Of a DNA stretch of 64,000 bases, positions 18,804 to 62,082 are shown one piece after another. Within the stretch, counting starts at the first letter, position 1, and the number at the start of each line of letters is the position of its first letter. The notes beneath the pieces were generated by a model. It saw only the letters and a program-made list of their open reading frames with translations. It made no database searches and was not told where the DNA came from. The stretch is taken from positions 10,894,537-10,958,536 of the forward strand of contig CM082577.2 in the NCBI GenBank assembly GCA_040954595.2, written 5' to 3'. The DNA comes from Balanoglossus misakiensis. Lineage: Eukaryota; Animalia; Hemichordata. Both the position numbers and the translations under genes were made by a program.

Positions 18804-18912
18804 TAGCTGCAGTTCAGTAGCTCAAGGTTTTGCGTTGGTTTGTCAGTTAGAGGGCAGTTTGCTGCCTAACTCACAAATCAAGGCAAAACCTCAAGCTACT
18901 GAACTACAGCTA
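18804..18912. repeat. 109-bp imperfect palindrome (MITE-like, TAG...CTA ends)
   Basis: TAGCTGCAGTTCAGTAGCTCAAGGTTTTGC...GCAAAACCTCAAGCTACTGAACTACAGCTA. No clear TSD. Confidence 0.7.
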
Positions 18913-20223: not shown

Positions 20224-20331
20224 CAGGGTTCATACACCTAGAGCAATTCGAAATTCCTGGAGTTTCCAGGGGATTTCCAGGAATTTTCCAGGAGGTTTTG
20301 TGGTAAAAAAGCCATTTTCCAGGATGGTTCA
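20224..20331 (+). mobile_element. hAT-like terminus, the insertion target of the giant palindromic element
   Basis: CAGGGTTCATACACC followed by several TTTCCAGG subterminal repeats, cut at GGTTCA. Confidence 0.5.
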
Positions 20332-20367
20332 AGTAGTATAGGTTGGAGCCGTAGCACTCGGATTTGG

Positions 20368-20880
20368 GGAGGAGGAGCTGAGGAGGAGCTGAGGAGGAGC
20401 TGAGGAGGAGGAGCTGAGGAGGAGGCGGAGGAGCTGAGGAGGAGCTGAGGAGGAGCTGAGGAGGAGGAGCTGAGGAGGAGGCGGAGGAGGAGGAGGAGGA
20501 GGAGGAGGAGGAGGAAGAGGAGGAGGAGGAGGAGGAGGAGGAGCTGAGGAGGAGGAGGAGGAGGAGCTGAGGAGGAGGAGGAGGAGGAGGAGCTGAGGAG
20601 GAGGCGGAGGAGGAGGAGCTGAGGAGGAGGAGGAGGAGGAGGAGGAGGAGGAGGAGCCGTAGCACTCGGAGGAGGAGGAGGAGCTGAGGAGGAGGAGGAG
20701 GCAGACATGGTCCCCTAAGTTGGTGGAAAATTGAGATATGGCTAAGTATATATGGAACGTGCTTTGATTGGTGGACTTTCTGCAAAGCATGATGTTGGGA
20801 GGAGGAAGTGGAGGTGATGTTGGGAGGAGGTGGAGGAGGAAGAGGAGGAAGAGGAGGAGGAGGAGGAGGAGGAGGAGGAG
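20368..20880 (+). repeat. (GAG)n / GAGCTG purine-rich simple-repeat mosaic, left arm
   Basis: Long GAG runs interrupted by CTG/GCG triplets (20368-20700 and ~20795-20880). Confidence 0.95.
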
Positions 20881-21851
20881 AACAAGCTATAATATGATAT
20901 GAGTTTCATAAGAAATCACTGCTACTATATATTCATCAGCGCGGGTCAAAGGTTTTGTCAAGTTTTTTCTTTCGTAAATACGGTATGTAAAATTCATAAA
21001 CGCATATATCCAGGATTTTTATCATTTCATGTTGTTTTAAAAATTAGGGGAATGATATTTTACTGACGAGCTCACCGTTTTTTACCGGCAATAAATTTCC
21101 GTGTCAGTGAGGTCGCGGGGAATTACCCGCCGAAACTAGGTCAAGATGGCCGAACGGGATATCAACAAACATGTTGACGCGATCTTTTTTTTGCGCTCGG
21201 CATTTTCTATGCTGTAAATGTACAGAATTACGAAAAACACTGAAAAGTTTGATAGAAACTTGCATCTACAGGTCATAAAATGCTAAATTTCAAAGCATGA
21301 TTGTATTTGAATGGATTTTTTCGGCGATGAAAAAGTTCAAACTTGTTTATCATTTCATGTAGTGTGAGTGAATGGTGAACTGTCATTTTTATATTTACGG
21401 CACTGATGTCAACGCGATACTTTTGTTATGTTGCGATACCAAATTTAGCTTGTTATGAGGGACATATCTTCTCTTAATTTTGCAAGCATAATAAAAATAG
21501 ACGTGTTTTCAAAGCTTTGAAGTAAATTTTCGTTGATGCATACAAAAGTGTCAGCTGGTGAGCGAGCTCGTTGTTGCCATGACAGCATTTTTTTCCTTCT
21601 CATGTCGGCAGTCAAGTCTTGCTTTTCCCCTTTGCATTCGTTCATATTTCTCTTTTATTGTATTTAGCCCTCTCCTGGGATAAATTCGTACTGAACAAAT
21701 TTTATTTTTATTTTGGGGGTCATTTTTTTAAGATCACAAAGTAGGTTTTTTGAGTCTTTCAATATAATTTCCTTGGGGTTCTTAGTCAGTGACATAGAAT
21801 TATTTAAAAATTCAGTCACCTTGTATTTTTCCCCCATTAGAAATATGAAAT

Positions 21852-24800
21852 ATGGAAACAGTACTACTTAAGATAAGGGACAATCTCGACAGCTTAGTGA
21901 CAGGACAGAAGACTTTAGCTGATATTAATTGTGAGGTTCCACTGACCTACAACCTGTATCTAAGTTTACACGATGGGCTGCAGGCAACCGGAATTAATAT
22001 TCAACAGGCTTTCCCTCACATCATTAAACTGTTTGATCCTGACATCATTTTGCCAGCAAAAATAAGTAATTTAACAAGGCAAGTTAGGAAGAGAGTAGAG
22101 AAAGGTAGAAGAGAAGGAAATGAAGACGGAATACTCAGCACCATTATTTCAGGCCAGGCAGAGAGGAAGTTGTCAGATGTTTTCAGTGAGAATAATATCA
22201 CCAAGCAGGTTTTGCTCACTTGCAGTTTCTCAGATAGCCAGGACAACACTATTAACCTTCAAATCAAGCATATACTGGAATTGAGAAATGTTCTTGTCAC
22301 ACACCACCTTCCTTGGGATCATGCCTTGAAATGGCTGAGACAGTTTATGTCATTGAAAGGAGAAACAGCACTTAGTCCAGCTGCAATTACTCGACAGTGG
22401 ACAAGATTCCACGATAAATACTTGAAACTGAAAATGAATAATCATCAAAGTGAACTTGAGAGTTTTGTGAACCAACTATACAAACTGCCACAGCATCAGG
22501 TGTCTGCCAGTATATCACACACCAGTAACAATACTGAACATGAAAGTGAACATGACACTGATAACATAGATATAAACAAGATGATGGGAAATTTGACAAA
22601 CAGTCTGATAGACAGTTACCAAGAAATAAGTATGTTGGGTGAAGCTATGGAAGAATTAGCTCAGGAGAAGCTGGAAGTGTTAGAGAAGGTGAAAGAACTA
22701 GATAAGCTGAAGTTGAAGTATAATAAGAAGATCATTGATATCAGACAACTCAAAGAAAAAACTGGCATCATTAGCACCAAGAAATGTAACAAAGAAACTA
22801 AAAAGAAGAGATGAGAAAATATCAAAGATGGAACACCAAATTCAAGTACACAAGAAAGTGATTGATGATCAAGTACTTGATATGAATTTAATGACAAAGG
22901 AAGCAGAGAAATTGAAAGTAAAGTTGGATCAAATAGTAAAGGAAAAGACTAATCTGCAAAAGAATAAAAGTTACTGGAAAAGGAAAGCCCAGTCTGCAGA
23001 TAAACAAGAGTCCATAGAATTAAGAGAAGCCAGGGATCAAGTTAGGCAGTTGGAAAATGAAAACCAGGAGCTGCATGAAAGAGTAACAGAGATGATGAGT
23101 GACAATCAGATAAAAACATTTGAAAATGGAAAATACACAGATACAATAAGACAGATCTATTATGATCTGCTATCACATAATGTTTCAGTGGATAACTGCA
23201 CATCAGTTGTGAAATCTGTAATCAAAAATCTCCTGAACATTGATGTTGGACGATTGCCAAGCAAATCACTGACATCAATGTTGCAGGTAGAAGCACTGGT
23301 TGTTGCACAGGCCCAAGCTGCTACAGAAATATTAGAACAGGAAAAATACAATACCCTCCATAGTGATGGCACAAGAAAGAAATTCATTGACTATGCTGGT
23401 CTGCAAGTGACACTTCCAAACAAATCCTCTCTATCTCTTGGATTTCAAGAACTTTTGCGTGGCAGTGCCGATGACTACATGAATGCTACAATACTAACAT
23501 TTCAGGAGCTCAGTGAAGCCATTGCTGAGGATGATAATGATAAATTATCTATATATGCACAACTCCTCCTTCGTAGTAAAAACATTATGAGTGATCGTCA
23601 TGTTGTAAATAGAAAATACAAGAGCAAATTGGAAGAACTGAGAGAAACTTTATTACCAGTCATTGAGGAAAACTGGGATAAATTAAGTGATGATGAGAAA
23701 TCGGAAATGACAAAAGTAAACCATCTTCTATGTGGTATGCATGTTTTAAGTAACATGGCTACAGCAGTGAGCACAGCATGTGGAATCTTTGAAAATGAAC
23801 ACAGGAGTCAGATGAAAACAGAAAAGTCAACATTTGGTAATCAGTCACACTGTTTTGCTCTGTTATATCAAACCAGCAAAGGCTTCACTGACTCTGGTTG
23901 TCAAAAATCAGGGGTTTACACTGATTTTGCCCCATATATGAATGAAGTGAAAGAAAATCAGTATTTAATAGCATTTGAACATAATAGATTCAATGTTGCT
24001 TTTCATCAAGGTGCTGCTGTGTATCATCACAGACACCATATTTCTGACTTCTTGAAGTCTGGGCGTTGTGGGTCAACAAATAAGTTGATATGTCATGTTC
24101 AAGCAATTTTGGATGAACCCATTGTGATGGCCGAATGTAGAGCTCTTGGAATAATATCTAAACTAATCACTGGTCCTCTAATGCGCCTGTTAGAAAGAAA
24201 GGATATACATTATTATGACATGAATGTCCATTGGTTAGAATTGAAAACTTGCCTAGCTGATAATTCATCAGATGCAACACCCCTACTGAATGAAACCTTC
24301 TACTTGTCAGACACAACCATCACTAAAGATGAATTGTATTCCAGTCTGTTTCCAACAGAACGAGACACGCATTTTGATTTGCTAACATTGGATGCATTGC
24401 AAACATTTTGCAAGTCAATGCTACCTGTTATTGAAAGGCAGCTTGGTAACCAACTACCGGGTGGGCTAGAGAATCAACCATGTGAGATTCTGTGCGAGCA
24501 GGTTCAAAGTGCACCACTGACAAATATACGATCAGAAAGTGATTTCTCTGACCTTGACAGACAGATTAGACATGCACCACAAAAGAGTAGAGTAGCCAAG
24601 GCTGGTGTCATTTGTTTCAGCAGAAATAAAACTTCTGCTTATCTTCATAAGCTGCCACAACATATCAAAATGAAATATCTGCGGATAGCTCGTAAGCAAG
24701 CACCAAAAAGAAAAAAAAAAGAGAATACATGCACAGTAAAGATCTTATTAAGAAGAGACTTGAATTACAGAAATCAAGAATGGAAAAAAAAACAAAAGCA

Positions 24801-25512
24801 GAAACAGAGAAAACAGCAGAAAAGACACCAGTTAGAGCAGAGAATTGTAAATAAGTGGGGGGTTTGGGAAGATGAGCCTGAGGTAGATAGGAAGCTGCAA
24901 GAAATGAAACTAAGCGAACAAACAAAGGCCCTTAAAGACCAAATTATGTACAGAGTAACCCTCCTTAAAGATAGTCTACCAAATAAAAAGCTGTCTAAGT
25001 GGCAAGACAGTGGACGAAAACTCACTGTTAAGCAACTGACAGAGAACTTAAAAACTATAATGCATGCAAACAACAGTGAATTACCAGACTTCGTCAAAGA
25101 GATAAATGATACTTTAAGAAAAAAGAAAGTGGAGACTGAACAGGCACTTAACAAGAAAAAGACATCAAAAAGAACAAGAAAAAGGAAAGTACAGAAATTT
25201 GGTGTACAGAGACAATTACAAGCTGGAATGTACATTGCTGTAGCTTATGAAAATTGTTGGTTTGCAGGTGAAATCAAAGATATTAACTTAAATCCTGATG
25301 GAAGTCAAAATGTCACAACAACCTTTCTGTCTCGAACAGGTACAAATTCATTTAAATGGCCAACACGAGCAGATGTTTCGAATATTGACTCAAAATTTAT
25401 CTTAAGAGAAATTGACATAGAACCAAAAGACTCCTTGCTTCGTGCCTGGTCAGTCAAAGATGTAACTGAAGTAGAGAACATGTACAAACAGTTTAAACGT
25501 CAGTATTTTTGA
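21852..25512 (+). pseudogene. DDE transposase-like gene (~1220 codons) split by a +1 frameshift (ORFs 21852-22814 and 22735-25512), left copy
   Basis: Motifs TLHSDGT (D), NIMSDRH (D), LLCGMH (CxxH) and TNIRSESDF (E). Coiled coil before the core; Tudor/SH3-like C-terminus (IAVAYENCWFAG...FKWP). Removing one A from the A6 run at 22756-22761 fuses the ORFs. An AG acceptor at 21839-21840 precedes the ATG. Confidence 0.75.
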
Positions 25513-25794
25513 GCCGCTAAGAATAATATAATGTACTATATTGTACTGAACTAGTGTGATCCTTTTCCGGATTCTGTATATGTGTTAATGTTTATTCTGC
25601 ATGTATTTATCAATAACTCATTCTCATGCCAAATTAATAGTGGAATTATACATCTCATAATATATTTAAATGCTTACCAACTTTCAGCAATATTTGTCAC
25701 AAAGTTTTTGAATAGCCGTGAGAATTTGACAAAACCTTGAGATTAAACAACCTTATCTATATCTAGCACCCATAGCATAATCAGTCAAAAGTGA

Positions 25795-26791
25795 TTTTTT
25801 GTGATTTTCAAGCTGGATTAAATGTAATACTACAAGTGCTTATAGATCTATGATTTAACAAAACTAAGAGAACAGGTACATGTCAGTTTTCACAGAAAAT
25901 TTCATGAGGATTATGTACATAGTTTTGGAGATACAAACTTTTGAAATCGGCAAATTTTGTAATTTTCCAATAGTGCCATGCGTATCTGACTAAAGAGTTT
26001 TTTGTGATTTTCAAGCTGGATTAAATGTAATACTACAAGTGCTTATAGATCTATGATTTAACAAAACTAAGAGAACAGGTACATGTCAGTTTTCACAGAA
26101 AATTTCATGAGGATTATGTACATAGTTTTGGAGATACAAACTTTTGAAATCGGCAAATTTTGTAATTTTCCAATAGTGCCGTGCGTATCTGACTAAAGAG
26201 TTTTTTGTGATTTTCAAGCTGGATTAAATGTAATACTACAAGTGCTTATTGATCTATGATTTAAAAACTAAGAGAACAGGTACATGTCAGTTTTCACAGA
26301 AAATTTCATGAGGATTATGTACATAGTTTTGGAGATACAAACTTTTGAAATCGGCAAATTTTGTAATTTTCCAATAGTGCCGTGCGTATCTGACTAAAGA
26401 GTTTTTTGTGATTTTCAAGCTGGATTAAATGTAATACTACAAGTGCTTATTGATCTATGATTTAACAAAACTAAGAGAACAGGTACATGTCAGTTTTCAC
26501 AGAAAATTTCATGAGGATTATGTACATAGTTTTGGAGATACAAACTTTTGAAATCGGCAAATTTTGTAATTTTCCAATAGTGCCGTGCATATCTGACTAA
26601 AGAGTTTTTTGTGATTTTCAAGCTGGATTAAATGTAATACTACAAGTGCTTATTGATCTATGATTTAACAAACTAAGAGAACAGGTACATGTCAGTTTTA
26701 ACAGAATATTTCATCAGGATTATGTACATAGTTTTGGAGATACAAACTTTTGAAATCGGCAAATTTTGTAATTTTCCCATAGTGCCGTGCG
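25795..26791 (+). repeat. Tandem array, ~5 x 203 bp (left arm)
   Basis: GTGATTTTCAAGCTGG recurs at 25801, 26004, 26207, 26408 and 26611. Confidence 0.97.
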
Positions 26792-27715
26792 TGTAAAAAC
26801 TAAGTCCAATGAAATATTTTTGAACTTTGAAGATGGATTTCTAAAATGTGATGTCACAATTGAACATGTAACATTGCAAAAATTTGAAGAAAATAAACTT
26901 TCTAGTAGATTTAACCAAAAAAATGGATTTTTAATGAATATAATTGAAATTTGGCATCTCTAAAAATGATGATTTTCAGTTTTTTCCCATTTTTCGGCAA
27001 AATTTCACAAAAAAGCCCCTTTTTCGCAACATTTAAATTGACGTAATTCAAAAACTTCTTGACGGATTTTGAAAATTTTTGTTTTGTTTTGTTTCTCTCA
27101 CATTATACTTCAAAATGTTTATAATGCAGTGAAGCTAAAATGAATTTAAAATTTTGCATTGAACTCCCTACAGGAAGTTGTCAAATGTCGTGGGATGGGC
27201 TCCTCCCAAGTTTGTCCCCGTCTCCCAAAGTCTTAGTTACACACTGACAGCTGCAGCATTGGCTTGTCTGCGCTGTCAGTTATATACGACATGAGACTTG
27301 AAAGCTGGCACGAGCTTTTCTCTGTGATGCATGTCATCGTTCAGTCAAAATAACACCAGAGATTGCAATGTAAACAGACAGGCGTAATAAGTTCTACCTG
27401 GAAAGAGGAAACCGTGGTGGACCCCTGGTTTTACAGTCCCAGAATTAACACTGGCTGGATAGATAGCTATACTGAAGTTATAGAAACACAATATGTTCTT
27501 TTCACGATCCGTATGTTTAACGCGATAATTCAAGTTTTGACGATTTCGCTAGTGTGCCCACAATAGATTGCATTTCGAGACTGGTCCTGGAAATAATGTT
27601 CACAGCATTGTCACTTTCTGTCACAGTGCAGTGGACGCGTGAGGTCACTGAGTCATCAAGGGCTGTCGATGTCTGTCAAGTAACACATCGTTTTTGTTGA
27701 TAGAAGAAAGGTTAA

Positions 27716-27942
27716 AAGGACAAAGTCTCTCTCTCACTGCCTCTTTTCCATTAATTATGTTGATACAACACACCATTTATATTATTCTACATGTGGATAT
27801 ATAGTGAATGAGCGTTCAACCACATACAACTTCCATTCTGTTTATAGGATATGAGAGTAAAAACTCACCCAAAATGAATAAAAGGTAAAGAACAATTATT
27901 CATTTTGGGGATTTTTTTTTTCATTTTCGTGTCTACAAGCGG
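27716..27942 (+). mobile_element. Truncated copy of the Kolobok-type MITE seen whole at 43064-43408
   Basis: TTAA+AAGGACAAAGTCTCTCTCTCAC... is collinear with 43064 onward and stops at GTCTACAAGCGG, where the right arm starts. Confidence 0.9.
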
Positions 27943-28547
27943 TAGAACTTATTACGCCTGTCTGTTTACATTGCAATCTCTGGTGTTATTTTGACTGAAC
28001 GATGACATGCATCACAGAGAAAAGCTCGTGCCAGCTTTCAAGTCTCATGTCGTATATAACTGACAGCGCAGACAAGCCAATGCTGCAGCTGTCAGTGTGT
28101 AACTAAGACTTTGGGAGACGGGGACAAACTTGGGAGGAGCCCATCCCACGACATTTGACAACTTCCTGTAGGGAGTTCAATGCAAAATTTTAAATTCATT
28201 TTAGCTTCACTGCATTATAAACATTTTGAAGTATAATGTGAGAGAAACAAAACAAAACAAAAATTTTCAAAATCCGTCAAGAAGTTTTTGAATTACGTCA
28301 ATTTAAATGTTGCGAAAAAGGGGCTTTTTTGTGAAATTTTGCCGAAAAATGGGAAAAAACTGAAAATCATCATTTTTAGAGATGCCAAATTTCAATTATA
28401 TTCATTAAAAATCCATTTTTTTGGTTAAATCTACTAGAAAGTTTATTTTCTTCAAATTTTTGCAATGTTACATGTTCAATTGTGACATCACATTTTAGAA
28501 ATCCATCTTCAAAGTTCAAAAATATTTCATTGGACTTAGTTTTTACA

Positions 28548-29345
28548 CGCACGCACGGCACTATGGGAAAATTACAAAATTTGCCGATTTCAAAAGTTTG
28601 TATCTCCAAAACTATGTACATAATCCTGATGAAATTTTCTGTTAAAACTGACATGTACCTGTTCTCTTAGTTTGTTAAATCATAGATCAATAAGCACTTG
28701 TAGTATTACATTTAATCCAGCTTGAAAATCACAAAAAACTCTTTAGTCAGATACGCACGGCACTATTGGAAAATTACAAAATTTGCCGATTTCAAAAGTT
28801 TGTATCTCCAAAACTATGTACATAATCCTCATGAAATTTTCTGTGAAAACTGACATGTACCTGTTCTCTTAGTTTTGTTAAATCATAGATCAATAAGCAC
28901 TTGTAGTATTACATTTAATCCAGCTTGAAAATCACAAAAAACTCTTTAGTCAGATACGCACGGCACTATTGGAAAATTACAAAATTTGCCGATTTCAAAA
29001 GTTTGTATCTCCAAAACTATGTACATAATCCTCATGAAATTTTCTGTGAAAACTGACATGTACCTGTTCTCTTAGTTTTTAAATCATAGATCAATAAGCA
29101 CTTGTAGTATTACATTTAATCCAGCTTGAAAATCACAAAAAACTCTTTAGTCAGATACGCACGGCACTATTGGAAAATTACAAAATTTGCCGATTTCAAA
29201 AGTTTGTATCTCCAAAACTATGTACATAATCCTCATGAAATTTTCTGTGAAAACTGACATGTACCTGTTCTCTTAGTTTTGTTAAATCATAGATCTATAA
29301 GCACTTGTAGTATTACATTTAATCCAGCTTGAAAATCACAAAAAA
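28548..29345 (-). repeat. Tandem array, ~4 x 203 bp (right arm)
   Basis: CTTGAAAATCAC recurs at 28721, 28924, 29125 and 29328. Confidence 0.97.
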
Positions 29346-29627
29346 TCACTTTTGACTGATTATGCTATGGGTGCTAGATATAGATAAGGTTGTTTAATCT
29401 CAAGGTTTTGTCAAATTCTCACGGCTATTCAAAAACTTTGTGACAAATATTGCTGAAAGTTGGTAAGCATTTAAATATATTATGAGATGTATAATTCCAC
29501 TATTAATTTGGCATGAGAATGAGTTATTGATAAATACATGCAGAATAAACATTAACACATATACAGAATCCGGAAAAGGATCACACTAGTTCAGTACAAT
29601 ATAGTACATTATATTATTCTTAGCGGC

Positions 29628-32600
29628 TCAAAAATACTGACGTTTAAACTGTTTGTACATGTTCTCTACTTCAGTTACATCTTTGACTGACCAGGCACGA
29701 AGCAAGGAGTCTTTTGGTTCTATGTCAATTTCTCTTAAGATAAATTTTGAGTCAATATTCGAAACATCTGCTCGTGTTGGCCATTTAAATGAATTTGTAC
29801 CTGTTCGAGACAGAAAGGTTGTTGTGACATTTTGACTTCCATCAGGATTTAAGTTAATATCTTTGATTTCACCTGCAAACCAACAATTTTCATAAGCTAC
29901 AGCAATGTACATTCCAGCTTGTAATTGTCTCTGTACACCAAATTTCTGTACTTTCCTTTTTCTTGTTCTTTTTGATGTCTTTTTCTTGTTAAGTGCCTGT
30001 TCAGTCTCCACTTTCTTTTTTCTTAAAGTATCATTTATCTCTTTGACGAAGTCTGGTAATTCACTGTTGTTTGCATGCATTATAGTTTTTAAGTTCTCTG
30101 TCAGTTGCTTAACAGTGAGTTTTCGTCCACTGTCTTGCCACTTAGACAGCTTTTTATTTGGTAGACTATCTTTAAGGAGGGTTACTCTGTACATAATTTG
30201 GTCTTTAAGGGCCTTTGTTTGTTCGCTTAGTTTCATTTCTTGCAGCTTCCTATCTACCTCAGGCTCATCTTCCCAAACCCCCCACTTATTTACAATTCTC
30301 TGCTCTAACTGGTGTCTTTTCTGCTGTTTTCTCTGTTTCTGCTTTTGTTTTTTTTTCCATTCTTGATTTCTGTAATTCAAGTCTCTTCTTAATAAGATCT
30401 TTACTGTGCATGTATTCTCTTTTTTTTTTCTTTTTGGTGCTTGCTTACGAGCTATCCGCAGATATTTCATTTTGATATGTTGTGGCAGCTTATGAAGATA
30501 AGCAGAAGTTTTATTTCTGCTGAAACAAATGACACCAGCCTTGGCTACTCTACTCTTTTGTGGTGCATGTCTAATCTGTCTGTCAAGGTCAGAGAAATCA
30601 CTTTCTGATCGTATATTTGTCAGTGGTGCACTTTGAACCTGCTCGCACAGAATCTCACATGGTTGATTCTCTAGCCCACCCGGTAGTTGGTTACCAAGCT
30701 GCCTTTCAATAACAGGTAGCATTGACTTGCAAAATGTTTGCAATGCATCCAATGTTAGCAAATCAAAATGCGTGTCTCGTTCTGTTGGAAACAGACTGGA
30801 ATACAATTCATCTTTAGTGATGGTTGTGTCTGACAAGTAGAAGGTTTCATTCAGTAGGGGTGTTGCATCTGATGAATTATCAGCTAGGCAAGTTTTCAAT
30901 TCTAACCAATGGACATTCATGTCATAATAATGTATATCCTTTCTTTCTAACAGGCGCATTAGAGGACCAGTGATTAGTTTAGATATTATTCCAAGAGCTC
31001 TACATTCGGCCATCACAATGGGTTCATCCAAAATTGCTTGAACATGACATATCAACTTATTTGTTGACCCACAACGCCCAGACTTCAAGAAGTCAGAAAT
31101 ATGGTGTCTGTGATGATACACAGCAGCACCTTGATGAAAAGCAACATTGAATCTATTATGTTCAAATGCTATTAAATACTGATTTTCTTTCACTTCATTC
31201 ATATATGGGGCAAAATCAGTGTAAACCCCTGATTTTTGACAACCAGAGTCAGTGAAGCCTTTGCTGGTTTGATATAACAGAGCAAAACAGTGTGACTGAT
31301 TACCAAATGTTGACTTTTCTGTTTTCATCTGACTCCTGTGTTCATTTTCAAAGATTCCACATGCTGTGCTCACTGCTGTAGCCATGTTACTTAAAACATG
31401 CATACCACATAGAAGATGGTTTACTTTTGTCATTTCCGATTTCTCATCATCACTTAATTTATCCCAGTTTTCCTCAATGACTGGTAATAAAGTTTCTCTC
31501 AGTTCTTCCAATTTGCTCTTGTATTTTCTATTTACAACATGACGATCACTCATAATGTTTTTACTACGAAGGAGGAGTTGTGCATATATAGATAATTTAT
31601 CATTATCATCCTCAGCAATGGCTTCACTGAGCTCCTGAAATGTTAGTATTGTAGCATTCATGTAGTCATCGGCACTGCCACGCAAAAGTTCTTGAAATCC
31701 AAGAGATAGAGAGGATTTGTTTGGAAGTGTCACTTGCAGACCAGCATAGTCAATGAATTTCTTTCTTGTGCCATCACTATGGAGGGTATTGTATTTTTCC
31801 TGTTCTAATATTTCTGTAGCAGCTTGGGCCTGTGCAACAACCAGTGCTTCTACCTGCAACATTGATGTCAGTGATTTGCTTGGCAATCGTCCAACATCAA
31901 TGTTCAGGAGATTTTTGATTACAGATTTCACAACTGATGTGCAGTTATCCACTGAAACATTATGTGATAGCAGATCATAATAGATCTGTCTTATTGTATC
32001 TGTGTATTTTCCATTTTCAAATGTTTTTATCTGATTGTCACTCATCATCTCTGTTACTCTTTCATGCAGCTCCTGGTTTTCATTTTCCAACTGCCTAACT
32101 TGATCCCTGGCTTCTCTTAATTCTATGGACTCTTGTTTATCTGCAGACTGGGCTTTTCTTTTCCAGTAACTTTTATTCTTTTGCAGATTAGTCTTTTCCT
32201 TTACTATTTGATCCAACTTTACTTTCAATTTCTCTGCTTCCTTTGTCATTAAATTCATATCAAGTACTTGATCATCAATCACTTTCTTGTGTACTTGAAT
32301 TTGGTGTTCCATCTTTGATATTTTCTCATCTCTTCTTTTTAGTTTCTTTGTTACATTTCTTGGTGCTAATGATGCCAGTTTTTTCTTTGAGTTGTCTGAT
32401 ATCAATGATCTTCTTATTATACTTCAACTTCAGCTTATCTAGTTCTTTCACCTTCTCTAACACTTCCAGCTTCTCCTGAGCTAATTCTTCCATAGCTTCA
32501 CCCAACATACTTATTTCTTGGTAACTGTCTATCAGACTGTTTGTCAAATTTCCCATCATCTTGTTTATATCTATGTTATCAGTGTCATGTTCACTTTCAT

Positions 32601-33288
32601 GTTCAGTATTGTTACTGGTGTGTGATATACTGGCAGACACCTGATGCTGTGGCAGTTTGTATAGTTGGTTCACAAAACTCTCAAGTTCACTTTGATGATT
32701 ATTCATTTTCAGTTTCAAGTATTTATCGTGGAATCTTGTCCACTGTCGAGTAATTGCAGCTGGACTAAGTGCTGTTTCTCCTTTCAATGACATAAACTGT
32801 CTCAGCCATTTCAAGGCATGATCCCAAGGAAGGTGGTGTGTGACAAGAACATTTCTCAATTCCAGTATATGCTTGATTTGAAGGTTAATAGTGTTGTCCT
32901 GGCTATCTGAGAAACTGCAAGTGAGCAAAACCTGCTTGGTGATATTATTCTCACTGAAAACATCTGACAACTTCCTCTCTGCCTGGCCTGAAATAATGGT
33001 GCTGAGTATTCCGTCTTCATTTCCTTCTCTTCTACCTTTCTCTACTCTCTTCCTAACTTGCCTTGTTAAATTACTTATTTTTGCTGGCAAAATGATGTCA
33101 GGATCAAACAGTTTAATGATGTGAGGGAAAGCCTGTTGAATATTAATTCCGGTTGCCTGCAGCCCATCGTGTAAACTTAGATACAGGTTGTAGGTCAGTG
33201 GAACCTCACAATTAATATCAGCTAAAGTCTTCTGTCCTGTCACTAAGCTGTCGAGATTGTCCCTTATCTTAAGTAGTACTGTTTCCAT
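29628..33288 (-). pseudogene. DDE transposase-like gene, right copy (ORFs 32326-33288 and 29628-32405)
   Basis: Both translations are identical to the left copy, with the same frameshift. Confidence 0.75.
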
Positions 33289-34258
33289 ATTTCATATTTC
33301 TAATGGGGGAAAATACAAGGTGACTGAATTTTTAAATAATTCTATGTCACTGACTAAGAACCCCAAGGAAATTATATTGAAAGACTCAAAAAACCTACTT
33401 TGTGATCTTAAAAAAATGACCCCCAAAATAAAAATAAAATTTGTTCAGTACGAATTTATCCCAGGAGAGGGCTAAATACAATAAAAGAGAAATATGAACG
33501 AATGCAAAGGGGAAAAGCAAGACTTGACTGCCGACATGAGAAGGAAAAAAATGCTGTCATGGCAACAACGAGCTCGCTCACCAGCTGACACTTTTGTATG
33601 CATCAACGAAAATTTACTTCAAAGCTTTGAAAACACGTCTATTTTTATTATGCTTGCAAAATTAAGAGAAGATATGTCCCTCATAACAAGCTAAATTTGG
33701 TATCGCAACATAACAAAAGTATCGCGTTGACATCAGTGCCGTAAATATAAAAATGACAGTTCACCATTCACTCACACTACATGAAATGATAAACAAGTTT
33801 GAACTTTTTCATCGCCGAAAAAATCCATTCAAATACAATCATGCTTTGAAATTTAGCATTTTATGACCTGTAGATGCAAGTTTCTATCAAACTTTTCAGT
33901 GTTTTTCGTAATTCTGTACATTTACAGCATAGAAAATGCCGAGCGCAAAAAAAAGATCGCGTCAACATGTTTGTTGATATCCCGTTCGGCCATCTTGACC
34001 TAGTTTCGGCGGGTAATTCCCCGCGACCTCACTGACACGGAAATTTATTGCCGGTAAAAAACGGTGAGCTCGTCAGTAAAATATCATTCCCCTAATTTTT
34101 AAAACAACATGAAATGATAAAAATCCTGGATATATGCGTTTATGAATTTTACATACCGTATTTACGAAAGAAAAAACTTGACAAAACCTTTGACCCGCGC
34201 TGATGAATATATAGTAGCAGTGATTTCTTATGAAACTCATATCATATTATAGCTTGTT

Positions 34259-34774
34259 CTCCTCCTCCTCCTCCTCCTCCTCCTCCTCCTCTTCCTCCTC
34301 TTCCTCCTCCACCTCCTCCCAACATCACCTCCACTTCCTCCTCCCAACATCATGCTTTGCAGAAAGTCCACCAATCAAAGCACGTTCCATATATACTTAG
34401 CCATATCTCAATTTTCCACCAACTTAGGGGACCATGTCTGCCTCCTCCTCCTCCTCAGCTCCTCCTCCTCCTCCGAGTGCTACGGCTCCTCCTCCTCCTC
34501 CTCCTCCTCCTCCTCCTCCTCAGCTCCTCCTCCTCCGCCTCCTCCTCAGCTCCTCCTCCTCCTCCTCCTCCTCAGCTCCTCCTCCTCCTCCTCCTCAGCT
34601 CCTCCTCCTCCTCCTCCTCCTCCTCTTCCTCCTCCTCCTCCTCCTCCTCCTCCTCCTCCGCCTCCTCCTCAGCTCCTCCTCCTCAGCTCCTCCTCAGCTC
34701 CTCCTCAGCTCCTCCGCCTCCTCCTCAGCTCCTCCTCCTCAGCTCCTCCTCAGCTCCTCCTCAGCTCCTCCTCC
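34259..34774 (-). repeat. (CTC)n simple-repeat mosaic, right arm
   Basis: Reverse complement of 20368-20880, with one extra triplet. Confidence 0.95.
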
Positions 34775-34990
34775 CCAAATCCGAGTGCTACGGCTCCAAC
34801 CTATACTACTGGTTCATGCGACAAAATTGTGCAATGTACTATTACTGTTACATTCAGATGCACTTGTAATTGCCATTGTGGAATTGTGATCAGCATTTTG
34901 CAGTATACTACAGCACACAACATTCCCAGGTTACATCTCTAACAGCTGCATTCGAGACTTTGTTAACCCTCATGTCGCCATACATTGACT

Positions 34991-35161
34991 TAGACTCTCT
35001 CACAACCCACGGTTCGCTAAAATAAGGCTCTTTACTGACGCGCCCTCAACCGTTTGGCAAGGGAGAAACACTGTTTGGTGTTGTGTATCGAACCTCGCCG
35101 GGCACACATGCCTGAGTCCATAAGCCTTCACGGACGACGAGAGGGGCTGTAAGAGAGTCTA
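34991..35161. mobile_element. 171-bp MITE with TAG...CTA ends and a 9-bp TSD (Academ- or MULE-type)
   Basis: TIR TAGACTCTCT / AGAGAGTCTA. ACATTGACT is duplicated at 34982-34990 and 35162-35170. Confidence 0.85.
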
Positions 35162-35443
35162 ACATTGACTGGGCTGCATATATCCTAGGTTGTCGTGAAT
35201 TGCTGAATTGACCTTACCATCCAGGGCAAACCGGACACACAGAGTCTAATTTCTTCATCAAAATGACAAATTGTGATTTATTGTATGTTGCTGTCGTTTT
35301 GAATTAGCGCATTTACTGAACGTGTTTATTGGAATTACTGATAACACATTTCCTCTGTAAAATGAAAAATAAATAATATAAATAGAGTGATTAGCTCTCA
35401 TTTCCGTGATAGGAAATCGGGGGCAGTTAACAGCTCTCTAAGC

Positions 35444-35571
35444 TATAAAAGGCCGCCAGTGACAAACAACTTTCAACAAAATCCCTTAATTGAAGCTTGT
35501 TTAAAGTAGCATACCCCAGACACCAAACTTGTGTTAGTAACCCTTGCAGAAGTCCAGTCAGATCGTCGAAG
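35444..35571 (+). promoter_or_regulatory. TATA box and non-coding first exon of the Kunitz gene
   Basis: TATAAAA at 35444-35450, donor AG|GTGAGT at 35571/35572, acceptor TTTTCATTAG ending at 35990, upstream of the ATG. Confidence 0.55.
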
Positions 35572-36029
35572 GTGAGTACGCAGATGCAATGCACAAACAT
35601 TTCAGGGATAGAGAGTTTTATTATTCCTTAAAAAAACACATGCAATTAGGGAATTTGAAATTCTAGCTTCCAAAAAGCTGGTTTAAATGCTAAGCGAATG
35701 CCGACATGTGTGAAAAGACTGCCGACAGACTCACTGTCAAGAACGCACTCCAAATATGATTTTCAACACAGCTGGTATTGTTTAGGAAAAAAAGATTTAT
35801 CAACTTGCGCGTATTTACATTTGCTTGTTCTGTGTTTTAGTTTTTAATATGTGCCATTTATATAAACTGGTTAAATTATACCTTTACATAGCTGCTTTTT
35901 GGCATACTGGCTGACTGACTGTGTGCCTGCATGCATGACTGGCTTGCAAAATGATCGAACACAATATACCTACGATTTTCTTTTCATTAGAACTTTACAC
36001 TGAGGGTCAACGTTTGAACGATGTATACC

Positions 36030-39615: not shown

Positions 39616-42600
39616 CTATCCTTTCAAAGCAGAAAATGTGTTTGGTAGAGCATTCACAATGCGATCCCTGGCGCCGGACCATGCACCTGGTCCCTGCAGA
39701 CGATACCAGTATGGAACCATTGGGCCATACTCAAACAGCATTGCTAGTTTAGGATCCTTTAGAAGAAGCCACCAGAAAGATGGTTTAACACCAAGAAATT
39801 CAGCTGCGTCTTCGATAACAGTCGGAAACGGAAGCTGTGCATAAAAAGGGAGATATAATACGTTATAACATTGTATGTTATTAAATGATGTGATACACCA
39901 TGATGCAAGATAATTAAAGAGAACAGCGAAAATGGTACAGTATAATATTCGGACAAATTTCGTAATACTGTATATCATACATAAGATGTTGTTTCAGAAA
40001 TCTTAATTTTCCTTAATCCTAAGATACGGGACAGCCTGTGTCTGTGATGTATTTGTCCTTTGACCGTCCAGTAAACATAAACGACGCTGTGAAGTCATTT
40101 TACCGAAATTGCACCCTTGTTCGGCATGTTCAACAGTGGAAAACAAAACGCACAGTCTTCATAACAATTGGGGTTACAACGCCTGTCTCCTTCTTCAGGG
40201 TGGATTTCTCTATATATCTTTCTGAAAGTGTATGCTTTTACGGGGTAAGGCTCTTGATAAATGAGCCCTAACTATACAATCTCTGAAAGACGCTGACGTT
40301 CGCGTTGCATCGCCGAGTGTGTACAGTGTTAAATACTAAACCCTTACGGCACTGGCTTTGTTTCCTGTGATGTTTGTTGGCCTCTGTTCAGTTTCCCGCT
40401 GCATTGTTGCTCTGTCAGGTAGACCGATTTTCCCTGCAAAAACTCTTGCCGCCAACCTTGCGTGAATTTCCGCAACAGGCCAGCGTGGCCCCATGACCGA
40501 CACCGTGTCTATTAAGGCCAATCTCTCTGGATTGTCAAGGCGGGCAGGAAATATGTACTTGTACAAGACGACGTTGTCTGATTCATCTGTAAAGGCAAGT
40601 GATGGATATTTGATGTTACAATACATTTTAGTAAACGGCCTATATGTTTAAAAATGCACTAAATATTGATATGACACCAATTGCTTACAATTGCCTAATT
40701 GCCGGTGTCAGATTCGGGAAAATATGAGCTTAGAAAAATATGACTACTATACCTTACGCATCTATTATAATATTACCATAAATCCATTGTTTGTCAATAA
40801 GAGGTACATCCCATTGATATCCCGTAGCAAAAATAACGGCATCGACATTTTCCAATGTAGTGCCATCTTTCAGTATGACGTCATTGTTTTGGAACTCTTT
40901 AATTCCCACCACGCGTGTGATTTGACCTTGTGCAACCCGGTCCTGCATGTCATCACTGATTAAAAAGTCTAAATGTGTTGGATCTACATCTTTGCTCTGA
41001 AAAAAAGGTATAATAATTAAACAAATCTTGATATAAAGCTATTGCATTTGATGAGATCGAGAAATTATATGACAATTTGACTAATCTTCCGTACTCCTAA
41101 GATTTACTAAAATCAATAAAGTGGACACAGATGCAAACAGTGCAAGAAAGGCAGAAAAATACGTCAAAAGTTAAATGGCTGATATCAAACATTCTTTTCG
41201 TTGGTGATAAACAATGCCCTCTGGCCAATATATCACCCTCTGTTAGAAACACCCACACATATGCGGAACGGTATAGTATACCTACTTGGAGACCGAATAC
41301 ATTCTGGTCACATACTCTGGTTCCGTATAACTTTTGCACAATCGAGAATAGTTTTGACGGCGACTTGGTTACTGATCGTGTCAGAATGGCCATGTCACAT
41401 GGCATGCCATCTCGTCCTATGCGCGGAAAAAATGAGACGCCGTGGCGCATACTCAAGTATACCTGAAAAGAAGGGCGCCAGTTAGCATGGAGAGTGTGTC
41501 CTGGTAGTAGTCGAAAATGTGCAACAACATATGTTGATCGTCAGCTCTATCTGTTTTAATGTAAGCCCGGTGTCATTCAATCTTGTGTTTACTTATTTAT
41601 TTTATTCATCCACCTAGGATAGGATGACTGAAACCTATACAAAGCAAGTACCATGGCCCATTGAGAAGTAATAAGTGCCTTGCTCAAGGGCACAGCATTA
41701 TGGCCATGAAGGCACCGTCCTCAGATAGAAAATCCGGGTCTTGGAACGAACCTAAAAACTAGGCCACGATGCCTCCTATTTTATCAACGGATTGGGTTCA
41801 CAATATAAACAAACAGCAGAATTCATTTTACGACGATTGGCTACAAGAAAGAGCTGGTGCACACAGGTTTTGAAACTCATTGTTAAAGTCTCAACAAAAT
41901 ATGGAATTTTGAAAATGTATGCGGAGTTATTGCAGAAAGCTTCATAATCCTGTAAGGTTGCCATAATTTGTGAGGAAGTCATTTACGAACCTGTCCACCG
42001 TTACGAGCGACTTCAGAAGAAATGTCACAACCAGTATAGGAACCACCTGTAAAATGAGTTTATCAATATTAGTAACATATTAAATAGTTTATTCAATCTG
42101 TGTGCCTCTCTTTTGCTGCATTTATGCCTGTGGACATTAAACTGAGCTTAATTATTCAAATGTTATTAAACTTGAACTACTATACATGTATGTCCAGAAG
42201 ACACATAAACTAAATTTAAACATGTCAGTCATCAAAGCAGTCCAACTTTAAAATGCACTCGATCAAGAATTGTCCATTTGCACAAAGAGTAATATATAAC
42301 ATCTGAAAAAAATATTTGTTTTATACAAATCTGGCCAATCATTCAAAATTCCCATCAGCGCTTGTGACTTGGGGCCAATTTTGTTAACTGTGAATTTGGT
42401 ATTTCAAACAATTTCACCAAAGCTATTGACTATGTGTTCATTTACAAGGTGGGAACGAAGAAAGGTTGATTCTGTCTTACCAACTACCAAGACTTTCTTC
42501 CCTTTGAATCGGCTACTTTCCCGATATTCATTCCCGTGGATCTGTATTCCCTTAAAGTTTTCTTGGCCAGGGTAAACGGGAGTACTTGCTTTGCTATAGG

Positions 42601-44649
42601 TGCCGGTACACACCATGACGTGATCGAAGTTTTCGACGGAAGCTGTGCCGTCACTGGTCAGCAGCTGGAGCCTCCAGTACTCGTTCCCGTCATGCTTTTC
42701 GAGTTTGGTCACCTTTGTGTCGAATTTGATGTACTTTTCAAGGTCAAAGTGGGCTGCATACTCTTGCAAATATTTAATGCAGAGCCGGTGACCAAAATAC
42801 GGTGGATATTCCTTTGGAAAAGGAAAATCCGAAAAGGAGATCATTTCTTTGCTTATGATGGTCACCAGAGAATCATACACGGCACCGCCTTGTTCAGGCC
42901 GCAATTCAGGGGTGTGGTACCATAATCCACCTGAAAAGAAAGTCCATGATAAGTGTCTATTGCCCTGCACTGTTCCGTTTTCACTAAATAAAACATGTTC
43001 TCCAACTTCTGCTGACATATAAGCTTGTCACAGAGGGCAGGATATGGCATTAATGTAAATTAAAGGGACAAAGTCTCTCTCTCACTACCCTTTTTCCATT
43101 AATTATGTTTGATACAAGACACCATTTATGTTATTCTACATGTGGATATATAGTGAATCAACGTTCGACCTCACAACACTTCCATCCCGTTTGTAGGATA
43201 TGAGAGTAAAAATCTTGCCAAATTAATAAACGGTAAAGACCAATTATTCATTTTTGCGAGTTTTTCACTCTTGTGTCTACAAGTGGGATGGAAGTTGTGT
43301 GTGGTTGAATGTTGATTCACTATATATCCACAGTAGAATAACATAAATGGTGTCTTGTATCAAACAAAATTAATGGAAAAAGGGTAGCGAGAGAGGGACT
43401 TTGTCCCTTTAAAGAAAGGTCCCAGTAAGTCAAGAACAGCAATGAATGGAGACTGGTATTTAGGGCATGCCGTAACCTCTACTCTAGTCGTCTGGAAGAG
43501 CGCCACATACAGGTCATGCAAAGAGTCCTTCCATGATCATAGATGATTTTGTTGTCAATTTTAAAGTGAAAGCTTTGACTTACTCGAGCGTTACACGATC
43601 ATTGAATACTGCGAGGTTGAAAGTTCACATCTCGAGTGAAATTCGTGAGTACACTTTGAAAATCGACGGGAATTTTGTTGAATGTTTCCGTGACCTTGAT
43701 AATGAAAGGATTTGCAGGGTGAGAAAAATATCCGAATGCTGACATATTTGTCGGTCATTTAATCGAATTGTGCCATTTCGGTTCATTTCGCCAGCCAAAT
43801 TCTCGACCCATGTTGCGTTGGCGTGACAATCACTCAAGACGTTGCGGGTATGTCCCACCGCCTGGGCCGCGGTCGGTGAATGACTTTGCGCAACAGCGGA
43901 AGACAAAGTCTTCAGAACTGGATTGTACTTGGCTACTGACCCATGCATATGTAAAATTTGGGTGACTGGGAGCTTACATACTCGTGGATCGCCGAACAAG
44001 TCACGTCCGACCAATTGTATTCGACACAACAGTGCAATAATGGACTAATTACATCCCTATTTCATTTCACGATCTGTGCGAATTTTTATATAAACCGCGC
44101 CGACCAGCATACGTGTGTGGCGAAAACTATATCGTTAAACGCATGTCAAATATTCTCCAAGCTCTCGCATCAGTGGCGGGCTATACCAGGTGACCAATAT
44201 GGCTAAATGTTGACCAATTTTGCCAGCGTCATTTGCATTCTGGGTGACAGAGACCATATGCGATATCGAACAATTGTCACAGGTATAAACCACAATGAAA
44301 GAAGCAACACCATTGTGTTCTCGGCCGTTTTGTGTGGGAGTTTAGTCAAAAACTAGAACAACGTGAACCATTTTAATTCACTGAGGGCGAAACTTAACCA
44401 ACCCGCGGTGTTTCGTTACCAACCAAGGCAGTCAAATACAGATTCTGGTAGACTGTTTTCAATCTCAATCATGGTCTTGTTGTTTAAGGGGACACATGGC
44501 ACAACCTGTTTGCTTCAGACTTGCTCACCTAGTTTGTCGTGTCTCTCAAAACAGGTCGGCTCCAGACCATCTTCTTCGAGGCAACTTTTGATTGATACCA
44601 GACCAGAAACTCCAGCACCTATGATAGCCACACGTTTCTTGGTCGTCAT
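39616..44649 (-). CDS. Flavin-containing monooxygenase (FMO family), ~493 aa; exons 44649-44529, 42930-42481, 42046-41991, 41462-41286, 40996-40777, 40586-40348, 39834-39616
   Basis: [11 protein letters not shown] (FAD), [29 protein letters not shown] (FxGxxxHxxxY), [17 protein letters not shown] and [13 protein letters not shown]. All introns are GT-AG and the frame stays open. Confidence 0.92.
41651..41776 (-). mobile_element. tRNA-derived SINE fragment in an FMO intron
   Basis: Minus strand starts GGAGGCATCGTGGCCTAG (A-box-like) and contains GTGCCCTTGAGCAAGGCACTT, a common SINE core motif. Confidence 0.55.
43064..43408. mobile_element. Near-palindromic Kolobok-type MITE (345 bp) in FMO intron 1
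   Basis: AGGGACAAAGTC...GACTTTGTCCCT with arms of ~150 bp. TTAA at 43060-43063 and 43409-43412. Confidence 0.92.
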
Positions 44650-48239: not shown

Positions 48240-60248
<12,009 letters not shown>

Positions 60249-61077: not shown

Positions 61078-61650
61078 TTATAATAATAATGTTTTATTGT
61101 CTTTTAGGCCACCGGCCAATATGACAATAGCATGGTAAGATATATTACAGAACGAAATACAGCAACAACAAAAAAAGAAACATTAGGTCACCTTCAAGCT
61201 TTCATGAAAAATATTCTTTCCTCAAAATCATGGCTTTATGTACAAATTTGCCAAGATTTCTTAACACTGTTGGCGACTTCGACCTCATCAGTGTTAGAAA
61301 TTTCTCTTCGTAAATAGACTCAGAGTTGTCATGTGGTAATAAATATCTTAAGCTTTGATACAATGGGCATAAAAATATTACATGAAATTCATCCTCCACA
61401 CCTCCTGTACATATTTCACAGATTCTGTCTTCAAAGTCAATGTTGGCATAGCTGCCTTCCTGGACTCTTAAACCAAGACATGAACATCTCAATCGTGCTA
61501 GTGCATGTCTATGTTTTGGCTCTGTAATTTCACAAAGATATTTTTCTGGTTCAAGCATGCTTTTAAAATTACGATATGTACGAAGCCTGTCTTTTGTACA
61601 TACTTCACTGTACCACTCTTGTTTCTTGCATAGAAATGGATTTGAACGTA
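61078..61650 (-). mobile_element. 3' fragment of a non-LTR retrotransposon (RTE-X-like)
   Basis: LRTYRNFK...EKYL...LARLRCS..L.VQEG.Y...RICEIC..VEDEFHVIFLCPLYQSLR (CCHC), then AATAAA and an (ATT)n tail. Confidence 0.8.
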
Positions 61651-62082
61651 AATAAACGCAAAATAGCGGTAGCCAAGAGATTGGATCAGGAGCACACAAA
61701 GAGCTCTCAGAAGTGACTCAGAACGGGGAAAAGAGTTGGCTATATGCGCACATGACATGTGACCTAGTCTCCGCCCCTCAATGGGTGAGTGACATGCACG
61801 GGAACCCCCTACCTGAAAATCAGGGATTTTGCCTATTTTTCTCAATCACCTGCAAACCCATAGCGTGAGCCCCTCCACACCATTGGGCTACCAAGCGCGC
61901 ATGTAATGTCAGGTATTTCATGACGATACATTTACATACGCCTCCTTAGTCCATTTATGCACGCATTGCATAATATAAGCTTAGAAAGGACACTGGGAAT
62001 AATCTATTGGTTATAGATCACATACGTTTATCATACGACCCTTTTGAATTCACACTGGAATTAAATTTATGTTAAATGAAGA

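What the first reader, a model, noticed from the sequence alone, without database searches (positions are those of the whole stretch)
27399..27942. Palindrome centre breaks inside a hairpin MITE: a visible fold-back scar
Seen: the spacer ends with a copy of the near-palindromic MITE found whole at 43064-43408. It includes the MITE's left arm, its loop and ~30 bp of its right arm, then jumps into the giant right arm at GG (27941-27942, shared by both). Inference: the MITE hairpin primed fold-back synthesis that copied the whole left arm, and a one-sided deletion or template jump of ~440 bp left an asymmetric, stabilising centre. This gives a mechanism for building a two-ended element from one terminus plus captured host DNA.
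Basis: partly seen in the sequence, partly recalled or inferred. Interest (0 to 1): 0.72.

Follow-up and report, generated by a model that had tools for sequence, protein, structure and literature searches.

The report
Mirror-image transposon with one off-centre junction
A 14.5-kb jumping gene, likely from an acorn worm, is two near-identical mirror-image halves joined off-centre inside an old, cut-off miniature transposon; it likely arose in place when a break was repaired by copying the element's own left half, a known route to such palindromes, and the sequence does not show that the miniature element's hairpin primed the copying.

Summary
Arms 20332-27398 and 27941-34810 differ by 3 substitutions and 4 indels. 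The 542-nt spacer ends in a TTAA-type MITE cut 47 nt past its loop, joined to the right arm at GG. Each arm holds the same frame-broken hAT-like transposase, and a 6-bp target duplication flanks the unit.

The proposed mechanism is only partly supported. The MITE letters up to the junction are native, not mirrored, and their 3' end is predicted unpaired, so no trace of hairpin priming remains. A 2-nt overlap arises in 17.5% of random junctions. One template switch explains the centre with no second deletion. Contig depth suggests the 'captured host DNA' is a low-copy repeat that already carried the MITE.

Public contigs support the left spacer edge as native sequence and the target duplication as real. 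None was seen across the new junction, so it lacks independent support.

Closest known: maize Mu/Ac killers, Galileo with extended ends, human fold-back duplications. Unusual here: a full-length transposase frame in both arms. The scan holds no look-alike sequence elsewhere, only unrelated palindromes in other genomes.

The parts
20326..20331 (+). Left target-site duplication GGTTCA (6 bp perfect; an 8-bp reading with one mismatch also fits)
   Evidence: uninterrupted paralog of the target in contigs
20332..27398 (+). Left arm of the palindrome: left part of an hAT-like DNA transposon
20332..20370 (+). Terminus AGTAGTATAGG...; the 13-mer at 20349 recurs at 20657; the terminal 35 bp are at tens of copies by contig depth
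20368..20880 (+). Subterminal GGA-rich arrays (20368-20701, 20823-20880), mirrored at 34259-34774
21849..22814 (+). Transposase N-terminal frame (321 aa), 50% identical to the N-terminus of Saccoglossus protein P0002; frame break near 22755 in an A run
22717..25512 (+). Transposase main frame (931 aa): D217, D293, C339-x-x-H342, E607; fold closest to Hermes; a likely short out-of-frame stretch between two A runs near 24711-24790
25795..26792 (+). 203-bp tandem array, 4.9 units
27171..27711 (+). Low-copy repeat segment nested in the element; 27171-27398 is mirrored in the right arm, 27399-27711 lies in the spacer
   Evidence: three contigs leave the window's sequence at 28168 (mirror of 27171); depth about 6 times single copy in run X1, 2-3 times in X2
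27399..27940 (.). 542-nt unpaired spacer
27712..27715 (.). TTAA target of the MITE
27716..27942 (+). Truncated MITE copy (positions 1-223 of 345), native letters up to the junction
27868..27909 (.). Inner hairpin of the MITE copy: 14-bp perfect stem, 14-nt loop
27941..27942 (.). The one derived junction: GG shared by the MITE and the right arm
   Evidence: not seen bridged in contigs
27941..34810 (-). Right arm: inverted copy of the left arm, one 203-bp unit shorter
28551..29345 (-). 203-bp tandem array, 3.9 units, with variant units in register with the left array
29628..33291 (-). Second transposase copy (frames 32326-33291 and 29628-32423), same translation and same breaks
34811..34816 (+). 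Right target-site duplication GGTTCA
43064..43408 (.). Whole near-palindromic MITE used as reference, TTAA at 43060-43063 and 43409-43412

Best explanation
This is a 14.5-kb palindrome made of two left halves of an hAT-like transposon, likely formed in place when an ordinary inserted copy broke at or near an old MITE in its 3' part and the break was repaired by one template switch at a 2-base overlap that copied the element's own left half. SHOWN in the sequence: the arms, the target duplication, a single derived junction, native MITE letters up to it, and identical transposase breaks in both arms. INFERRED: (1) an element with different left and right ends inserted and made the GGTTCA duplication; (2) it gained the 27171-onward repeat, which already carried the MITE; (3) a break or stall inside the MITE left a 3' end at ...AAGCGG; (4) that end paired with CC at 27397-27398, or was end-joined there to a strand copied inward from the left terminus; (5) the copy was tied to the right flank through the terminal sequence that both native ends share, replacing the native right end. 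The spacer is then simply the stretch that was not copied. The MITE is at most the fragile site, not the primer.
For: Native letters run to the junction: 15 of the last 18 match the whole MITE, including an exact 11-nt run; a mirror copy would match fully, as the inner arms do (613 nt, 100%). The 3' end is predicted unpaired. The left spacer edge is continuous in contigs of X1 and X2 (joint 27399/27941). Human fold-back duplications have a loop-derived spacer with 2-8 nt overlaps, 2 nt in 7 of 13 (PMC3907307 passages). Galileo is proposed to copy its left end over its right end in place (PMC3573991 passages). Hermes with two left ends keeps little activity and with two right ends none (PMC10368747 section 14); the transposase here folds most like Hermes (Z 16.3, rmsd 4.3, 344 aligned). 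A distant relative, L013, has one transposase, a 15-bp TIR, a 7-bp duplication and otherwise unlike ends. The MITE copy is about 15% diverged from its neighbour while the arms differ by 0.04%, and a paralog 3% diverged carries the MITE start at the same site, so the MITE is an old resident. An uninterrupted paralog of the target shows left-flank-like letters running into right-flank-like letters in two runs.
Against: No listed contig bridges 27940/27941, and depth arithmetic leaves no room for one in X1 (220 depth-places left, about 2900 needed). Contigs drop rare variants, so this is not absence, but the junction has no independent support. The 2-nt overlap is at chance level (17.5%). The break does fall in a hairpin element, close to where its best-paired outer stem begins (pairing 0.55-0.8 in the bins covering positions 101-240, 0.9-1.0 outside them; junction at 223), which leaves the hairpin some role. 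Step 5 is a second, invisible switch, and the native right end of this family was never seen. Inner-arm depth of about 4 (X1) and 5-9 (X2) single-copy units allows further copies, possibly palindromic, which would favour jumping as a unit. The Hermes result is from a protein only about 13% identical.
Confidence: 0.45

Rival explanations
1. One reading: the MITE hairpin capped or primed a break, replication made a palindrome centred on the MITE loop, and a later one-sided loss of about 437 nt left the present centre; the two-ended unit was then cut out and inserted.
For: The junction lies 47 nt past the loop of a hairpin element. Inverted Alu pairs and short inverted repeats nucleate large palindromic duplications in yeast, and longer spacers lower instability (review PMC7999016 passages). 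The perfect target duplication around two left ends is what insertion as a unit would give.
Against: No mirrored letter survives next to the MITE; the 3' end is unpaired. It needs one more event than a single switch, and that event must erase every trace of the first. Two-left-end Hermes is nearly inactive.
Confidence: 0.17
2. One-step centre as in the best explanation, but made during or before transposition: either sister-chromatid transposition with aborted re-replication fused two unequal left halves at the new target (the Ac-killer route), or a fold-back elsewhere was excised as a two-left-end unit by an intact family member.
For: Ac killers are two unequal 5' Ac fragments fused in inverted orientation between perfect target duplications (bioRxiv 10.1101/2020.01.07.897926, section 15 and passages), which is the local anatomy seen here. 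Tens of termini in the sample suggest a family that has been active.
Against: The Ac route also leaves a large inverted duplication of flanking DNA; none is visible within the window, though it could lie beyond. Both transposase copies are broken, so a helper is needed. One X2 contig joins the terminus to the right flank while carrying letters that differ from the window, a weak hint that the insertion is on both haplotypes and older than the 0.04% arm divergence.
Confidence: 0.2
3. The centre, or the whole mirror, is an assembly error: a fold-back long read or a misjoin of near-identical copies.
For: No contig seen across the derived junction. All frame breaks sit in A runs and are the same in both arms, as pooled read correction could produce.
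Against: The arms differ at 7 places, including a whole 203-bp unit and a 4-bp microsatellite step. The sequence resumes in the other half of one interrupted target repeat with a perfect duplication. An X2 contig joins 27 terminal letters to the right flank (under the tool's 31-letter bar for bridging). The jump is not between homologous MITE positions, as a repeat-driven misjoin would be. The X2 joint contig stops 30 letters into the arm, which a branch at 27941 would give, but so would a substitution in a paralog.
Confidence: 0.12

Closest known systems
Maize Mu killer and Ac killers (p1-ww-id1, p1-ww-id4; bioRxiv 10.1101/2020.01.07.897926; passages and section 15 read)
   Same: Inverted duplication of a DNA transposon's 5' part, two 5' ends facing outward, unequal arms leaving a loop (id4), target duplication around the unit; Ac is a hAT element.
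   Different: Arms here are 6.9-7.1 kb and each holds the whole transposase frame and 3' array, against 1.8-3.9 kb partial Ac; animal host; no RNA or silencing evidence; no flanking megabase duplication seen within the window.
Galileo copies with extended TIRs (2RT; PMC3573991; passages read)
   Same: Left-end sequence copied over the right end; arms differ in the number of tandem units of about 200 bp; in-place repair proposed.
   Different: Galileo TIRs reach about 1.26 kb and its longest-TIR copies lack the transposase; here the whole gene is in both arms, and the enzyme folds like Hermes, while Galileo is classed with P elements.
Human fold-back inverted duplications (Hermetz et al. 2014, PMC3907307; passages read)
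   Same: Single-copy spacer between the arms, 2-8 nt inverted overlap at one edge, one step.
   Different: Those come with terminal deletions and dicentric intermediates, spacers 766-70,466 bp; here the spacer is 542 nt and both flanks are intact.
T2-family MITEs, presumed Kolobok partners (PMC6004289; passages read)
   Same: TTAA target, AGGRR terminus, short, non-coding, very high copy.
   Different: Different host group; no partner transposase was sought here.
hAT transposons, Hermes structure; hAT5, hAT6, hAT7 groups (PMC10368747 passages and section 14; PMC12730594 passages)
   Same: DDE triad with CxxH, Hermes-like fold, short target duplication.
   Different: About 13% identity, no Pfam match, about 1,200 aa in intact relatives, 6-bp (relative L013: 7-bp) duplication; group not assigned.

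Membership tests
hAT superfamily | RNase H-like DDE transposase with CxxH and a Hermes-type insertion domain | tested here: met
   D217 in 28 of 29 rows, D293, C339 and H342 in 29 of 29, E607 in 26 of 29 (3 gaps); top 10 Foldseek rows are Hermes, E 2e-5 to 3e-4, TM low; Z 16.3, rmsd 4.3, 344 aligned, next non-Hermes entry ISCth4 Z 10.6
hAT superfamily | Target-site duplication, usually 8 bp (5, 6 and 7 bp in named groups) | tested here: inconclusive
   6 bp perfect, or 8 bp with one mismatch; relative L013 has 7 bp; variants per PMC12730594
hAT superfamily | N-terminal BED zinc finger and hAT dimerisation profile | tested here: inconclusive
   0 Pfam families for either frame; no transposase family among the 25 listed for 29 aligned members; the N-terminal frame was not folded
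hAT superfamily | Placement inside the hAT tree | not tested
   no reference hAT sequences were fetched; filed as hAT-like only
T2 / Kolobok-type MITE | TTAA target duplication and AGGRR terminus | tested here: met
   43064-43408 begins AGGGA, ends TCCCT, TTAA on both sides; spacer copy has TTAA then AAGGA; definition from PMC6004289
T2 / Kolobok-type MITE | Short, non-coding, high copy | tested here: met
   345 nt; summed contig depth about 17,000 times single copy in X1 (rough, both arms may count)
T2 / Kolobok-type MITE | Autonomous Kolobok partner with the same ends | not testable with these tools
   no genome held
Fold-back inverted duplication | Unduplicated spacer with short inverted overlap at one edge | tested here: met
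   542-nt spacer, GG/CC; overlap at chance level for one junction, 17.5%
Fold-back inverted duplication | Loss of the DNA beyond the break (terminal deletion or dicentric) | tested here: not met
   both halves of the target are present with a duplication; the event is confined to the element or was moved afterwards
   native letters to the junction; pairing 0.43 or less at each of 27925-27942; could have been erased by a later deletion
Transposon 'killer' locus (Muk, Ack) | Inverted duplication of the element's 5' part within a target duplication | tested here: met
Transposon 'killer' locus (Muk, Ack) | Hairpin RNA and small RNAs that silence the family in trans | not testable with these tools
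   the one run search was for DNA and listed no RNA holder; 8 poly(A)-type hexamers lie between the left stop codon and the junction and could end transcripts early

The most novel reading that the evidence does not exclude
A hairpin MITE nested in a hAT-like transposon triggered a fold-back that built a new element with two left ends and two full transposase genes, and this palindrome either jumps as a unit or is read through into a 6-kb hairpin RNA that silences its own family: an animal counterpart of the maize killer alleles, started by one transposon inside another.
Probability: 0.12. Interest if true: 0.65.

Novelty: new variant of a known kind. Interest (0 to 1): 0.3.

Why it matters
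How a host first recognises and silences a cut-and-paste transposon is open, and natural inverted duplications are the known trigger in maize. A palindrome that holds the whole transposase gene twice, only 0.04% diverged, is a ready candidate for the same route in an animal, and small-RNA data would test it directly. If the MITE caused the break, abundant hairpin MITEs would be a source of such structures. The junction itself is an ordinary short-overlap switch and, as a single case, cannot show which repair route made it.

Tried and rejected
Genome search for a donor locus or other centres: not possible, no genome held.

Junction support: 3 runs of one sample, all contigs; no listed piece bridges 27940/27941 and 6758 pieces were not shown. 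This is no evidence of absence. An empty allele at the insertion site was not among the loose ends listed; 71 were not shown.

Longer hidden similarity at the junction: the apparent GAAGTT/GAACTT match is reached at 50% of 6797 control positions; rejected.

Snap-back extension (GTAGA pairs with TCTAC 5 nt upstream, which would turn the 2-nt overlap into 6): a 5-nt or longer inverted motif occurs in 3% of 20,000 random junctions within 10 nt and 8% within 20 nt; inverted or direct, 8% and 16%. It was noticed after the fact and does not cover the whole GG as Yu and McVey's rule asks (PMC2943611 passages); kept as a weak hint only.

Palindromic relatives: 0 of 54 metagenome loci have transposase hits on both strands, but most are short contigs and short-read assembly collapses palindromes; weak. 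Of 28 loci with enough flank, one (L013) gave a convincing TIR with target duplication. The two L006 rows lie in a pair of dispersed repeats and the L052 row is AT-rich and likely chance.

Pfam gave nothing. The ESM Atlas gave unnamed clusters at 0.92-0.94 and named ones only at 0.76 or less. PMC8721813 (part 1 of 4 read) describes 8-nt duplications for hATx and did not help assign the group.

Earlier scan notes by sequence: 0 look-alike windows.

None listed a palindromic animal hAT with two whole transposase genes, but none named acorn worms, Repbase Reports and most subscription papers are not covered, and no supplements were read.

Full report
OBSERVATION. The window holds one giant inverted repeat, 20332-27398 against 27941-34810. 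A global alignment of the arms (7067 and 6870 nt) shows 3 substitutions and 4 indels: 3, 1, 203 and 4 nt, or 0.44 substitutions per kb. The spacer is 27399-27940 (542 nt). It ends in a copy of the 345-nt near-palindromic element at 43064-43408, 84.5% identical over 232 columns, starting after TTAA at 27712-27715. The copy keeps the left arm, a perfect 14-bp stem, a 14-nt loop and 33 more letters, and meets the giant right arm at GG 27941-27942, position 223 of 345.

WHAT THE PARTS ARE. Each arm carries the same two overlapping frames, 321 and 931 aa. They are one transposase broken near 22755 in an A run: the first frame is 50% identical to the N-terminus of Saccoglossus protein P0002, the second 63% to Ptychodera protein P0001 over 926 columns. 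A short stretch between two more A runs reads more like P0001 in another frame (judged by eye). The search gave 31 relatives among 7995 scored candidates, the best from acorn worms, so the host is likely an acorn worm. Pfam is silent. An alignment of 29 sequences keeps D217, D293, C339-x-x-H342 and E607. The model (mean pLDDT 84.9) matches Hermes best (Z 16.3, rmsd 4.3, 344 aligned; next ISCth4, Z 10.6). I call it hAT-like; no tree was made. The unit is flanked by GGTTCA on both sides; an 8-bp reading with one mismatch also fits. The MITE has the TTAA target and AGGRR end that define T2/Kolobok-type MITEs (PMC6004289 passages).

PUBLIC CONTIGS. Three runs of one sample were found, all kept as contigs, possibly the source sample and so not independent. 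Laid on 27399-28460, a joint 27399/27941 on opposite strands appears in X1 and X2: the left spacer edge is continuous with the arm, so the only derived junction is the right one. No listed piece bridges 27940/27941. In X1 the listed pieces plus one assumed MITE contig ending at 27942 explain the depth of that bin to within 220 depth-places, where a single-copy bridge would need about 2900; X2 cannot be resolved. The tool states that contigs drop rare variants, so the junction is neither confirmed nor refuted. Three contigs (one exact, two with 19 differences) leave the window's sequence at 28168, the mirror of 27171. An X2 contig with 9 differences in 280 nt covers 27460-27739, including the MITE start. 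Against a single-copy depth of about 94 in X1 and 20-33 in X2, the spacer's left part stands at about 6 and 2-3, the inner arm at about 4 and 5-9, the terminal 35 bp at about 59 and 108-178. The tool warns that depth is no copy number, so these are rough. The reading is that 27171-27711 is a low-copy repeat that already held the MITE, not unique host DNA. Laid on 34772-35800, both runs give a loose end before 34833 in which left-flank-like letters run straight into right-flank-like letters: an uninterrupted paralog of the target, with one copy of the 6-mer site. One X2 contig joins 27 terminal letters to the right flank and carries letters that differ from the window.

TEST OF THE PROPOSED MECHANISM. 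If the MITE hairpin had primed synthesis, letters after the priming point would mirror this copy's own left arm exactly, as the inner 613 nt of the giant arms do. They do not: the last 18 letters match the whole MITE's right arm at 15 positions with an exact 11-nt run; over the last 34 letters the gapped alignments give 25 of 37 columns to the native arm and 22 of 38 to the mirror. In a DNA folding ensemble each of 27925-27942 pairs with probability 0.43 or less and the last G 0.13. Priming would therefore lie beyond 27942 and be wholly deleted with 437 copied letters. That cannot be excluded, but nothing shows it. A single switch at GG/CC gives the same sequence: in human fold-back duplications the spacer is the loop and overlaps are 2-8 nt, with 2 or more expected in 134 of 1000 random junctions (PMC3907307 passages); my null gives 17.5%. 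In favour of some role for the hairpin, the break is inside it and near the start of its best-paired outer stem, and inverted repeats are known fragile sites that seed palindromic duplications (review PMC7999016 passages). A 5-nt snap-back motif across the junction is a weak, after-the-fact hint of templated end-joining.

HOW THE TARGET DUPLICATION GOT THERE. Either the palindrome formed in place from an ordinary inserted element, or it was inserted as a unit. For formation in place: Galileo is proposed to repair its right end from its left end and so lengthen its inverted repeats, and its arms differ in tandem-unit number as here (PMC3573991 passages); Hermes with two left ends keeps little activity (PMC10368747 section 14); a distant relative, L013, has unlike ends with a 15-bp TIR; both transposase copies are broken identically. 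For insertion as a unit: Ac killers have this same local anatomy and arise by sister-chromatid transposition with aborted re-replication (bioRxiv 10.1101/2020.01.07.897926, section 15 and passages), and depth allows more copies of the inner arm than this locus supplies.

COMPARISON AND NOVELTY. It is built like a maize killer allele and like a Galileo copy with extended ends, and its junction is like a human fold-back junction. It is not shown to be a killer (no RNA data), and it lacks the terminal loss of chromosomal fold-backs. What differs from the cases read is that the whole transposase frame and 3' array are in both arms, in an animal hAT-like lineage without a Pfam profile. Ten paper searches listed no such case, within the limits given under Tried and rejected; no supplements were read. 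The scan's notes hold no look-alike sequence; by words they hold unrelated palindromes in other genomes and other transposons of this genome.

VERDICT. The feature is real in the assembly, its centre is an ordinary short-overlap junction, and the specific claim of a visible MITE-primed scar is not supported. New variant of a known kind; interest 0.3, higher if small RNAs or repeated MITE-centred palindromes are found.

Noticed in passing
window 22755, 24711-24790 and mirrors in the right arm: All frame breaks of the transposase sit in A runs and are identical in both arms: either real slips that predate the duplication or shared consensus errors.
   Followed up: partly
window 34784-35015 and 28139-28460: Contigs with letters that differ from the window join the terminus to the right flank and span the 28168 boundary. 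If the other haplotype has its own palindrome here, the arms are being homogenised and the structure is older than 0.04% suggests. Unresolved.
   Followed up: partly
window 20280-20331 and 34811-34871: The element sits inside a repeat of about 25-40 depth units whose uninterrupted form is seen in contigs.
   Followed up: partly
window 34991-35160: A very high-copy short repeat (about 1000 times single-copy depth in X1) 180 nt beyond the right end; SINE-like by eye, not tested.
   Followed up: no
window 18804-18912 and 54528-54662: Two more small near-palindromic elements, about 81% self-complementary, unrelated to the TTAA MITE by BLAST.
   Followed up: no
window 55165-58070: Degenerate tandem repeat with a unit of about 560-785 nt.
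   Followed up: no
window 2709-4536: Tandem duplication about 960 nt apart, locally 88-98% identical.
   Followed up: no
window 42404-43027 (-) and 49411-53529 (-): Exon-like frames resembling a flavin monooxygenase, next to the whole MITE, and CUB, Frizzled and trypsin domains (names recalled, not searched).
   Followed up: no
window 61202-61717 (-): Frame resembling the C-terminal tail of a LINE reverse transcriptase (recalled, not searched).
   Followed up: no
L013 1931-9763: A cleanly bounded 7.8-kb relative (27% identity) with TAGGG termini, a 15-bp TIR and a 7-bp target duplication: a handle for classifying this Pfam-negative transposase lineage.
   Followed up: partly
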